From Kipferlia bialata (lineage: Eukaryota), in the NCBI GenBank assembly GCA_003568945.1, contig BDIP01000006.1, positions 1 to 52,487 on the forward strand: 52,487 nt of DNA, read 5' to 3'. Of this stretch, positions 20 to 3,016 are shown one piece after another. Both the position numbers and the translations under genes were made by a program. The notes below the pieces were generated by a model, which saw only the letters and a list, made by a program, of their open reading frames with translations, searched no databases and was not told where the DNA came from. How positions within the stretch are numbered: the first letter of the stretch is position 1; each line of letters begins with the position of its first letter.

Positions 20-248
20 GCCCGTACCCGTATCTATGTGGACAATGACATCCAAGTGTGGGAGCTGCTGGAGCTGGTGCTGGAGAGGGCAGGCATAGCA
101 GACGAGGGCTACTTCGGTCTCACCTCCTTTAACGCCAAGGTACTATATATAAGTACTATTAACATATATGTATGGAGGGAGAGTTGGAGGCAGGCATAGC
201 AGACGAGGGGTACTTCGGTCTGACATCCTTTAACGTAAAGGTACATAG

Positions 249-282
<34 letters not shown>

Positions 283-339
283 TGCTAGAGAGAGCTGGTA
301 CTCGAGAGGGCAGGCATAGCGGATGAGGGGTACTTTGGA

Positions 340-370
<31 letters not shown>

Positions 371-3016
371 TGAGAGAGGGAGAGAGAGAGAGAGAGGTAG
401 AAACGTCCTTCAATGCAAAGGTAAACCGTATATATACAGCACCATGTAGACTGAGAGAGTGGCACGTGCCCAGCCGTTGAGCTAGATCATTGAATAGAAT
501 ATTATATATTCTCTCTCCATCTACACCCTTTGTTCCCTCAAGACCCTTTATTCTCTCTCTACACCCTTAATACCCAGACTGGCATGTGCCCAGATGATGA
601 GCTAGATCACTATACTCTCTCTTCCTCTACACCCTCTATTCTCTCTCCCTCTACACTCTTATTCCCAGACTGGTATGTGTCCTGATGATGAGTTGGAGTA
701 CTGGCTGGATGCCGAGACTGCCCTGAGAGATGTGGGTATTAAGGACAAGACTCACTTGAGGTATGTATATATGGTATATATAGTATGTGTATTTCATGTA
801 GTATAGTATATATACCATTATCTCTACTCATACACTGCGTATAGTGTATATATATATATTGATGCCGAGACTGCCCTGAGAGACGTCGGCATAAGGGATA
901 AGACACATCTGAGGTATGTATATATTCATTGTATACTATAATCCTATACTATGTATAATGTATATATATATATATGCCGATACTGCACTGAGAGATGTTG
1001 GTATCAAGGACAAGACACACCTGAGGTATGTATATACAAGTATCATATATATAGTATAGAATATACTTGTGTAGATACTGGCTGGATGCCGATAGAGCAC
1101 TGAGAGACGTTGGTATCAAGGACAAGACACACTTGAGGTACACACGTATTGTGGTACACATTCCTCTCTCTCTCTCTCTCTCTCTCTCTAGACCCCTAAT
1201 TCCTCAGGTGCCGGCTCAAGGTCACCACCTTCTCCTGTGCATTCACACAGCAGATGCAGCACATGGTGGGTATATATATGTATATATGTATATATATATG
1301 TAGTAATAACTATATATGATACGGGAGAGTATTGTGTACTATATATGTATATATATTCATTCACCTTCTCCTGTGCATTCACACAGCAGATGCAGCACAT
1401 GGTATGGGATATGTATATATTGACATATGATTTCACAGCGTGATGTTGTGAATCGTATGGTGTCCTCTTCTCAAAGTTAGTTCTCTCTCTCTCTCTCTCT
1501 CTCTCTCTACCTCTCCCCTCCTTACCCCCAGCTAAGGCAGTCTGCAGAGACCGGTGTTGCCAGCAGGTATGTGATATATATAGTTATAGTTATCTTATGA
1601 TATATATATATATGTATAAATAAGTATATACTATGAGACAGGGGTTGCCAGCAGGTAATAGTGCAAAGTCAATATAAATATAAATATGTATGTATATACA
1701 AATACATATGTCTCTATACCTATGGCTGAGGCAGTCAGCAGAGACCGGTGTTGCCAGCAGGTATGTGATATATGACCTGTCATAATATACTTACATAGCA
1801 CAATCCACACTATTGACAATGATGTATATACTGCCATATATATATATTATATCTAACCCAGTGTATATATGTATGTATATATGTATATTATATTCTAATA
1901 TCAGGTGGTCTAAGGATGCCGATGAGCCAGACTCCCGGGGTCAGCAGGGGGTGGCAGCAACCTTAGACCCTAGGACGCTTGAACTGGTCTATGCAGAGTT
2001 GCTACACAGGTAGTATATATTTGTGAGTATAGATGAAGATAGTATATATATATATATGGGTCAGCAGGGGGTGGCTGCAACCTTAGACCCACGGACACTG
2101 GAACTAGTATATGCAGAGCTACTGCACAGGTATATACTATGTATATATATTATGATGAATGGAGATAGTATATATATGTAGTATATATATATACATATAT
2201 ATATGTGAACAGGGGGTGGCAGCAACACTGGACCCACGGACACTGGAACTGGTGTACAGTGAGCTGTTACACAGGTAGTATTTGTATATATATATATATA
2301 TATGAGTATAGAAGAAGATAGACCCACGGACACTTGAACTGGTGAATGCAGAGCTACTGCACAGGTGTACTACATTTCCCTCTCTCTCATTCTCTCTATA
2401 GACATTGATAGCCTAATCCGAAGAGTTGTGGCTTTACTGCTACCCCATCTCTCTACCTCTCTCTCTCCCTATCTCTCTCTACCTCTCTCTCTCTTTATCT
2501 CTTACTATAATGGAAAGAATGTATGTATTCTCACTCATAGAGTTGTTGCTGGCTGGTACCCCATGAACGAGAAGGACTCAGTATCTCTCTCTCTCTCTCT
2601 CTCCCTTCTATATATCTATATATCAGTATACTCTCTCTATATACTTATCCCTAGGGTTGTTGCTGGCTGGTACCCCATGAACGAGAAGGACTCAGTCTGC
2701 CTTGCTGCACTGGCACTGCACGCTGTATTCGGTATGGTCTATACACACATATATATACATCTATAGTCTATAGTGGACTCTGTGTGTATGTGTAATATAC
2801 TCTGTATATATAGTATTTAGATATAGACTCAGTCTGTCTGGCCGCACTGGCACTGCACGCTGTGTTCGGTATGTTACATGTGTATATAATGTATGTAGTA
2901 TATATATGTATACATATGTATATGTTTCTATTTCCATGAATGCAGAGATATGGTTTCATTTAGGTGACTGTGACCCCGTTGTCCATCATGTCTCTCTCTC
3001 TCTCTCTCTCTCTATA

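What the first reader, a model, noticed from the sequence alone, without database searches (positions are those of the whole stretch)
140..668. Strict polarity of echo-filled introns: donor echoes first, acceptor echoes last
Introns read: real donor, then 5'-truncated copies of the upstream exon end each with GT (here 241 and 421), then 3'-truncated copies of the downstream exon start each with branch+AG (~448 and ~578), then the real acceptor (668). The same order appears on both strands in the FERM, S2P and Sfi1-like genes. The spliceosome must therefore use the first donor and the last acceptor while skipping many near-perfect decoys, or remove the intron in nested inside-out steps. Donor and acceptor counts are often unequal (761-1207 has 4 donors and 1 acceptor), which argues against simple one-to-one nesting. 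Selection plausibly removes the reverse order because it would create a poison exon (inference).
Basis: partly seen in the sequence, partly recalled or inferred. Interest (0 to 1): 0.8.

Follow-up and report, generated by a model that had tools for sequence, protein, structure and literature searches.

The report
Intron echoes: fossil pieces of alleles
In this free-living protist most introns hold short copies of the neighbouring exon ends, complete with splice signals that the main mRNA skips where it could be checked, and these copies differ from the working exons almost only at silent codon positions, so they are likely leftovers of other, very different working versions of the same genes brought in by recombination.

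Summary
The window is Kipferlia bialata. 85 of 122 modelled introns carry half-exon 'echoes' (88 donor, 82 acceptor). In 25 of 25 introns with both kinds, donor echoes come first. A likely-RNA contig uses the first donor and last acceptor in the four introns laid, and DNA contigs carry the echoes unchanged. The order itself is mostly the geometry of tandem duplication, and nested inside-out splicing is not supported; pairing of sites across the exon is the likely reason echoes stay silent.

The surprise lies elsewhere. Echoes differ from the live exon at dS 0.39 but dN 0.03 (ratio 0.076, 95% 0.058-0.10), keep codon usage, and still show stops and frameshifts at about neutral shares. Dead copies of the gene's own exon cannot do this: clonal simulations gave ratios of 0.34 or more. 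Exchange between individuals of a very diverse population can (0.06-0.12 in 8 of 8 high-diversity, high-exchange runs). The echoes are most likely recently captured pieces of diverged working alleles. That predicts silent diversity near 0.25-0.4, above the 0.20 reported for Schizophyllum. No second allele was seen, so the source is inferred.

The parts
20..139 (+). Real exon upstream of the focal intron (FERM N-terminal region)
   Evidence: Likely-RNA contig matches 18-137 with no differing letter; PF09379 E 5e-4, below the curated cut-off
140..141 (+). Real (first) donor GT
189..242 (+). Donor echo 1: last 52 nt of the exon plus GT; 4 silent and 1 replacement change
292..422 (+). Donor echo 2, split by a TA/GA insertion: 292-343 (7 differences, all silent by direct reading) and 403-420 plus GT 421-422
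448..489 (+). Decayed acceptor echo (AG 448-449), a copy of the 578 echo with an insertion and replacement changes; below the automatic threshold
576..606 (+). Acceptor echo: AG 576-577 plus first 29 nt of the next exon; 3 silent, 0 replacement changes
667..668 (+). Real (last) acceptor AG
669..760 (+). Real exon downstream of the focal intron
   Evidence: Likely-RNA contig matches 667-762 with no differing letter
761..1207 (+). Intron with three donor echoes (861-913, 974-1025, 1076-1137, each plus GT): 18.5 silent and 4.5 replacement changes in all
   Evidence: one DNA contig spans 406-1154
20..12466 (+). FERM (plus LRR-like) gene, 32 modelled exons, 825 codons open; 56 anchored echoes in 31 introns
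   Evidence: deposited protein P0002 matches model residues 14-714
14555..17034 (+). Small gene, 9 modelled exons (SOUL-like by recalled motifs, no Pfam hit on 2 exons); 7 echoes
18022..25305 (-). Ser/Thr/Gly-rich repeat-protein gene, modelled in three pieces; 13 echoes
25648..31622 (-). Site-2 protease (M50) gene, 14 modelled exons; 23 echoes in 13 introns
   Evidence: Model identical to deposited P0001 over 513 of 513 residues; PF02163
32788..52424 (+). Long gene, 53 modelled exons, 1909 codons open ('Sfi1-like' label not confirmed); 71 echoes in 52 introns

Best explanation
The echoes are tandem half-exon copies that the main mRNA skips where it was checked, likely because splice sites are paired across complete exons, and they were likely copied recently from other, strongly diverged working alleles by misaligned recombination between individuals. 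Steps: (1) Shown: each echo is an exon end plus GT plus intron start, or an intron end plus AG plus exon start, placed next to the real junction. (2) Inferred from geometry: such a tandem copy leaves truncated donors after the real donor and truncated acceptors before the real acceptor, which gives the polarity. (3) Shown for 4 introns, modelled for the rest: outer sites are used. (4) Inferred: an echo lacks a partner site across an exon, so it is not recognised. (5) Shown: echoes differ from the exon at dS about 0.39 and dN about 0.03, with codon-usage-like changes. (6) Inferred: most of that divergence built up while the piece was a working exon in another lineage; the few replacement changes, stops and frameshifts are decay since capture. 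(7) Inferred: first junctions form by microhomology at TA/CT/GA repeats after strand invasion runs off the exon into an unalignable intron; later unequal exchange inside the echo adds copies and refreshes them. (8) Speculative: Dmc1-only, mismatch-tolerant recombination without Ku end joining favours this in fornicates.
For: Silent bias: 374.5 of 488 differences are synonymous against about 190 expected if only the exon were protected; mismatches by codon position 85/35/368; dN/dS 0.076, bootstrap 0.058-0.10, 0 of 2000 resamples at 0.5 or more; 0.06-0.18 in each of the five genes; echo versus echo 0.106. It survives trimming, one echo per intron side, and intact-site-only sets (0.055-0.082) and vanishes in shifted frames; a threshold-light scan also shows it. 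Code-aware: two-fold sites 84 silent vs 11 replacement; Lys codons changed in 2 of 71 where exons use AAG 130 to AAA 0. Echoes look untranslated now: 3 stops in 77 changed codons vs 4.6% neutral share, 6 of 8 distinct indels shift the frame, replacement changes are not clearly conservative (P 0.11), 15 of 157 echo sites give an open in-frame product, and no RNA contig lies on a distinguishable echo in 1-1850. More than two sources and mosaic copies: 13 tri-allelic columns of 176, four-gamete test fails in 10 of 15 pairs. Shared junctions: 35 of 88 echo pairs end within 2 nt; overlap with the adjacent repeat 2.05 vs 0.77 nt in 37 testable ends. Simulations: clonal lineage 0.49 or more in all 43 runs; clonal populations 0.34-0.72 in 8 runs; outcrossing 0.06-0.12 with dS 0.29-0.48 in 8 of 8 runs at theta 0.2-0.4 and exchange 60-300 times mutation. 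Fornicates lack Rad51A and Ku and have two Dmc1 paralogs (PMC8516963 section 8); Dmc1 stabilises mismatched triplets (PMC6719624 abstract).
Against: No donor allele was seen. Both deposited proteins stand alone in their clusters (1 member, 1 contig), and DNA and RNA contigs show one version of the exons in 1-1850, although the genome paper reads its k-mer peaks as diploid. The model needs exon silent diversity of about 0.26-0.42, above the 0.20 reported for Schizophyllum. Outcrossing runs with lower diversity or exchange gave only 0.18-0.53 (6 runs). Intron-flank mismatch does not track silent divergence per echo (rho 0.01, n 135), whereas whole-piece capture predicts some link. The spread of silent divergence (overdispersion 1.62) does not separate allelic origin from a range of ages. 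For the splicing step, U1-70K, U2AF35 and SF1 were scored absent in K. bialata (PMC6679479 supplement 9), which removes the textbook cross-exon bridge. RNA evidence covers 4 of 122 introns, comes from contigs that drop rare forms, and the run is RNA only by the tool's guess. The deposited FERM model uses the inner acceptor in 1 of 27 introns it covers and stops there. Four-gamete failures can be repeated mutation.
Confidence: 0.57

Rival explanations
1. Same anatomy and splicing, but the diverged source was a set of extra working copies inside one ancestral genome (hybrid, polyploid or long-asexual homologues) that have since been lost, not a living hyperdiverse population.
For: Fits the silent bias equally and needs no record diversity. 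The genome paper suggests diploidy. Silent divergence is fairly even among echoes.
Against: Post-capture decay is at most about 0.03 per site, so the sources existed recently, yet no second copy is in the protein collection. Tri-allelic columns and echo-echo dS 0.465 need more than two sources.
Confidence: 0.17
2. Echoes are still read into protein: the cell switches from the exon to the matching place in an echo (at DNA or RNA level, perhaps in another life stage), so each echo is under direct purifying selection.
For: dN/dS 0.076 is what working exons show; 104 of 170 echoes have no replacement change; GT is kept in 85 of 88 donor echoes. Contigs cannot show minor forms. In one intron the mRNA cannot tell exon end from identical echo.
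Against: Stops at the neutral share, mostly frameshifting indels, random frame (49 of 157 in frame), only 9 of 170 with an internal AG|GT switch point. No echo-skipping DNA joint among the 15 of 19 joints listed and no RNA contig on a distinguishable echo. No known spliceosomal route (own knowledge).
Confidence: 0.08
4. The introns are removed in nested or recursive steps that use the echo sites as intermediates, so the echoes are kept for splicing.
For: Echo sites are as strong as real ones and mostly intact. The end product would look the same in mRNA.
Against: 31 introns have only donor echoes and 29 only acceptor echoes; counts differ in 10 of 25 with both. Acceptor echoes are no commoner where the next exon starts with GT, as a ratchet needs (14 of 34 vs 40 of 88). 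It does not explain code-aware conservation.
Confidence: 0.08
5. Assembly artefact from a mixed or heterozygous culture, with exon ends of different strains stitched in tandem.
For: The silent bias is what different strains would show; 5 echoes sit in introns with N gaps. The DNA run may be the assembly's own source.
Against: A separate assembly of reads gives single contigs across exon, spacers and several echoes (406-1154; 27-241; 1550-1767) with no differing letter and even depth of about 380-440. Junctions join repeats to exon interiors, which a graph assembler has no overlap for (inference).
Confidence: 0.03

Closest known systems
Junction-spanning minisatellites: human F7 intron 7 37-bp VNTR, also CBS intron 13, LMNB2, PDGF intron 4 (PMC1557585; abstract, Introduction and Discussion read)
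   Same: Tandem units repeat a donor site into the intron; the most upstream site is used although the copies are functional.
   Different: Those are single loci, donor side only, near-identical units with few exon bases (4 in F7). Here 70% of introns are affected, both ends, units carry 12-74 exon bases, and they differ at silent sites. 5'-to-3' scanning cannot explain use of the last acceptor.
Tandem exon duplication and mutually exclusive exons (PMC9013439; abstract only)
   Same: Tandem copies of coding sequence in introns; low dN/dS between copies is expected for such exons (own knowledge).
   Different: Echoes are half exons with one splice site. The 2 near-whole-exon copies found are not preceded by an AG at the exon start. 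Frames are random and stops and frameshifts occur.
Intron gain by tandem duplication of an AGGT-containing segment (PMC3265369; abstract only; AGGT detail recalled)
   Same: Tandem duplication across coding sequence and splice signals.
   Different: There the duplicate creates an intron using a donor in one copy and an acceptor in the other; here only 9 of 170 echoes offer such a point and existing introns simply grow (median 312 vs 151 nt).
Exon definition (general knowledge; described in PMC1557585 Discussion)
   Same: Predicts nearest donor downstream of a real acceptor and nearest acceptor upstream of a real donor; exons here are short (median 76 nt).
   Different: U1-70K, U2AF35 and SF1 were not found in K. 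bialata, while U2AF65 and SR-like proteins were, so the bridge may be built differently.
Nested or recursive introns (twintrons, fungal stwintrons, ratchet points; recalled, no call)
   Same: Extra splice sites inside introns.
   Different: No pairing of inner donors with inner acceptors, no GT-start enrichment, and the extra sites come with exon copies.
Hyperdiverse eukaryotes: Schizophyllum commune, silent diversity 0.20 (PMC4576712; abstract only)
   Same: Alleles that differ heavily at silent sites.
   Different: Here the diversity is inferred from copies inside one genome and would be higher (about 0.26-0.42).

Membership tests
Junction-spanning tandem repeat (F7 type) | Tandem unit whose first copy spans the exon-intron boundary and repeats the splice site | tested here: met
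   170 anchored echoes; GT in 85 of 88, AG at the expected place in 72 of 82
Junction-spanning tandem repeat (F7 type) | Only the outermost site is used in mRNA | tested here: met
   4 of 4 introns laid; deposited models agree in 39 of 40 introns
Junction-spanning tandem repeat (F7 type) | Units are near-identical copies of one allele, with position-blind differences | tested here: not met
   dS 0.39, dN 0.03, third-position bias
Junction-spanning tandem repeat (F7 type) | Copy number varies between individuals | not testable with these tools
   One sample only; no close relative in metagenome contigs
Mutually exclusive tandem exons | Each copy is a whole exon with acceptor and donor | tested here: not met
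   Median 55% (donor) and 32% (acceptor) of the exon copied; 2 near-whole copies lack an AG at the start
Mutually exclusive tandem exons | Copies show purifying selection on protein | tested here: met
   dN/dS 0.076
Mutually exclusive tandem exons | Copies appear in mRNA in place of each other | tested here: inconclusive
   No RNA contig on a distinguishable echo in 1-1850, but contigs drop rare forms
Nested or recursive introns | Inner donors and acceptors pair up, or the junction regenerates a donor | tested here: not met
   60 of 85 introns hold one kind only; no GT-start enrichment
Nested or recursive introns | Splicing intermediates or lariats at inner sites | not testable with these tools
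   Only assembled contigs were available
Intron gain by tandem duplication | Donor in one copy and acceptor in the other at the same point of the duplicate | tested here: not met
   9 of 170
Programmed DNA elimination between direct repeats | A deleted DNA form that joins exon to echo | tested here: inconclusive
   DNA contigs run through the arrays; the 15 of 19 joints listed join simple-repeat places; rare forms and other stages are not seen
Exon definition | Sites without a partner across an exon are ignored regardless of strength | tested here: met
   Echo sites as strong as real ones yet skipped in 4 of 4 introns; correlational only
Exon definition | Pseudo-exons (AG then GT) are depleted or included | tested here: inconclusive
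   Weight-matrix scan found such pairs in 20 of 42 introns vs 30.7 expected; many 'acceptors' are exon-end AGs of echoes
Exon definition | Cross-exon bridging factors present | tested here: inconclusive
   Literature table only: SR-like proteins and U2AF65 scored present, U1-70K and U2AF35 absent in a draft proteome

The most novel reading that the evidence does not exclude
One Kipferlia genome stores a fossil population sample in its introns: about 1.4 captured allele fragments per intron (over 100,000 if the window is typical of the 124,912 introns), laid down by mismatch-tolerant Dmc1-only recombination in a sexual or parasexual gene pool whose silent diversity (about 0.25-0.4) exceeds the highest value I found reported for a eukaryote. 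A still bolder reading, that the cell switches into echoes to make protein, is not fully excluded but is much less likely (about 0.08, see rivals).
Probability: 0.42. Interest if true: 0.88.

Novelty: new variant of a known kind. Interest (0 to 1): 0.78.

Why it matters
First, it gives a natural, genome-scale test of splice-site choice: equally strong sites are skipped by position alone, at both intron ends, in a protist whose reduced spliceosome seems to lack U1-70K and U2AF35. Second, non-coding copies with dN/dS near 0.08 should not exist under neutral decay. If they are captured alleles, a single genome reports outcrossing and population diversity in a group where sex has not been seen directly (PMC8516963 passage), and the predicted diversity is a record that a few isolates can test. 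Third, echoes make 17% of intron DNA here and go with doubled intron length, a route of intron growth tied to DNA repair. Fourth, they can mislead gene prediction: the deposited FERM model ends inside an acceptor echo.

Tried and rejected
No whole genome was held, so the genome-wide order count could not be made. The run search listed no holder on record as RNA; the second run is RNA only by guess. Reads could be laid on 1-1850 only, and only as contigs; absence of cover on echoes is not proof of silence. Metagenome search with P0001 gave 3 distant M50-motif hits and no relative usable for comparison. The protein search with an exon of the long gene found nothing; that protein may exceed the 2000-residue limit, so its 52 introns rest on my open-frame model alone. 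The first automatic gene finder took echoes as exons and was replaced by hand curation; the Ser/Thr-rich gene is modelled in three pieces with uncertain links. The pseudo-exon depletion test was inconclusive. Flank-versus-silent correlation was null. The overdispersion test did not discriminate. Rank from the real exon showed no consistent age trend (donor pS 0.33, 0.37, 0.41; acceptor 0.25, 0.21, 0.19). Rejected: alternative in-frame splice sites, AG|GT switch, GT ratchet, fast exon with frozen echo. Literature: 10 searches; none listed a report of such echoes in Kipferlia, and the genome paper's main text has no 'duplic'; its supplements were not read, and subscription papers are not searched. 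The 1983 duplicated-splice-site papers were not held; they are known here only through the Discussion read. Two of three look-ups of earlier scan notes were empty.

Full report
Source. Two exon translations match deposited proteins of Kipferlia bialata at 100% on a contig of the window's length. This is a free-living fornicate with 124,912 GT-AG introns (PMC5874029; abstract, introduction, methods section 7 and search passages read). No whole genome was held, so all counts are for this window.

Observation. I built gene models by hand with the rule first donor, last acceptor. They give open frames of 825, 172, 513 and 1909 codons; a fifth gene is in three pieces. In the 122 introns, a search scored against an intron background found 198 copies of the flanking exons (control 0.003 hits per pair). 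170 reach the exon end or start within 4 nt and are counted as echoes; 28 interior hits were left out of the statistics. Echoes lie in 85 introns: 31 donor only, 29 acceptor only, 25 both. The order is donors first in 25 of 25, or 29 of 31 with interior hits.

Which sites are used. One contig of a run guessed to be RNA (3437 nt, depth 154) matches 18-137, 667-762 and 1531-1568 with no differing letter. The third exon was laid on its identical echo, with the exon's own first letters between and no spacer, and the contig continues into the next real exon. So outer sites are used in 4 of 4 introns laid. Deposited models (AUGUSTUS with transcript hints) agree with the outer-site model in 13 of 13 S2P introns and 26 of 27 FERM introns; the exception runs into an acceptor echo and stops. 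DNA contigs carry the arrays unchanged at even depth. Limits: contigs drop rare forms, and the DNA run may be the assembly's own source.

Why the order. A tandem copy that spans a donor leaves the whole exon first and the truncated copy after it. One that spans an acceptor leaves the truncated copy before the whole exon. The polarity follows (inference). Selection need only remove copies that make a whole extra exon. The 2 near-whole exon copies lack an AG at their start, but a general test for missing pseudo-exons was inconclusive.

Why echoes are skipped. Strength does not decide it: echo and real sites score alike. Nesting fails for the 60 introns with one kind of echo, and a GT ratchet is not enriched. 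First-come scanning explains the first donor, as in human F7 intron 7, but not the last acceptor. Pairing across the exon explains both. This step is inferred. It is complicated by a published table scoring U1-70K, U2AF35 and SF1 absent in this species.

The unexpected result. Over 1689 codons, echoes differ from the live exon at pS 0.307 and pN 0.030 (dS 0.394, dN 0.030, ratio 0.076; bootstrap 0.058-0.10). Mismatches by codon position are 85, 35 and 368. The result holds in each gene, for echo-echo pairs (0.106), for 105 nearest echoes alone (0.056) and for different trims, and it vanishes in shifted frames. The changes respect the code and codon usage. If only the exon were protected, about 190 of 488 differences would be silent; 374.5 are. 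An earlier scan note explained a sea-urchin case that way (43 of 107 silent, unchecked AI note); that reading fails here. A clonal lineage with one- or two-way conversion gave 0.49 or more in all 43 runs, and clonal populations 0.34-0.72 in 8 runs.

Are echoes translated now? Probably not. Only 49 of 157 intact echo sites are in frame and 15 give an open product; 9 of 170 offer an internal AG|GT switch. Stops are 3 of 77 changed codons against a neutral share of 4.6%, 6 of 8 distinct indels shift the frame, and replacements are not clearly conservative. These counts are small. The simplest reading is that silent differences were inherited from a working copy and the rest is slight decay since.

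Where the working copies came from. Columns with three states (13 of 176) and four-gamete failures (10 of 15) point to several recombining sources. Many echoes in one intron share their cut end (35 of 88 pairs), and cut ends overlap the neighbouring repeat more than chance. This fits one microhomology junction followed by unequal exchange within the echo. Forward simulations with exchange between individuals gave dS 0.29-0.48 and ratios 0.06-0.12 in 8 of 8 runs at theta 0.2-0.4; 6 runs with lower diversity or exchange gave 0.18-0.53. These are small toy models (N 120, 3-4 replicates). They imply exon silent diversity of 0.26-0.42, above the 0.20 of Schizophyllum. Fornicates lack Ku and Rad51A and keep two Dmc1 paralogs, and Dmc1 tolerates mismatches; that link is speculative.

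Against this reading. No second allele or paralog was found, so the strain must be haploid or inbred at these loci while the genome paper suggests diploidy. Flank divergence does not follow silent divergence. Lost copies within a hybrid or polyploid ancestor remain a fair rival.

Known or new. Donor-repeating minisatellites at single human loci are the closest known case. I found no report of two-sided, genome-scale, silent-diverged echoes in 10 searches; subscription papers and the genome paper's supplements were not seen. Verdict: observation confirmed, first reading partly supported, new variant of a known kind, interest 0.78. The polarity is the least surprising part; the silent divergence is the finding.

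Noticed in passing
window 44233-44432 (+): The modelled first donor is GC (44317) and a donor echo with GT follows 114 nt later in an open frame. Either a weak GC site beats a GT site by position, or the echo donor is the real one. A good single test case; no RNA laid here.
   Followed up: partly
window 10832-10891 (+): The deposited FERM protein P0002 uses this acceptor echo as its last exon and stops in the CT repeat. 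The likely-RNA contig is long enough for a longer frame. Echoes may truncate many deposited models.
   Followed up: partly
window 40967-41060 (+): A donor echo that has lost its GT is fused straight to an acceptor echo that is itself followed by a GT, a possible small pseudo-exon.
   Followed up: no
all 122 modelled introns: Exon ends are almost fixed: A at -2 in 109 and G at -1 in 118 of 122; the next exon starts with G in 93. Intron +4 to +6 is weak. A branch-like motif sits about 7-12 nt before the AG, recalling the fused branch point-acceptor of diplomonads.
   Followed up: partly
window 1725-1760 (+): A copy of the whole 35-nt exon 1532-1566 with its donor but without the acceptor AG.
   Followed up: yes
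window 4238-4408 (+) and 21718-21772 (-): Near-identical echoes flank short N gaps and may be scaffolding duplicates.
   Followed up: partly
window 18022-25305 (-): Gene for a Ser/Thr/Gly-rich protein with long internally repeated exons (333, 214, 576 nt); no Pfam hit on the one exon scanned. It looks like a surface or fibre protein (impression only).
   Followed up: no
window 14555-17034 (+): Small gene with SOUL haem-binding-like motifs (recalled; no Pfam hit on 2 short exons). Two successive exons encode a near-repeated motif, possibly an exon-end copy that became coding.
   Followed up: no
window-wide: Donor echoes are more diverged at silent sites than acceptor echoes (dS 0.48 vs 0.29) at similar dN; unexplained.
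   Followed up: no
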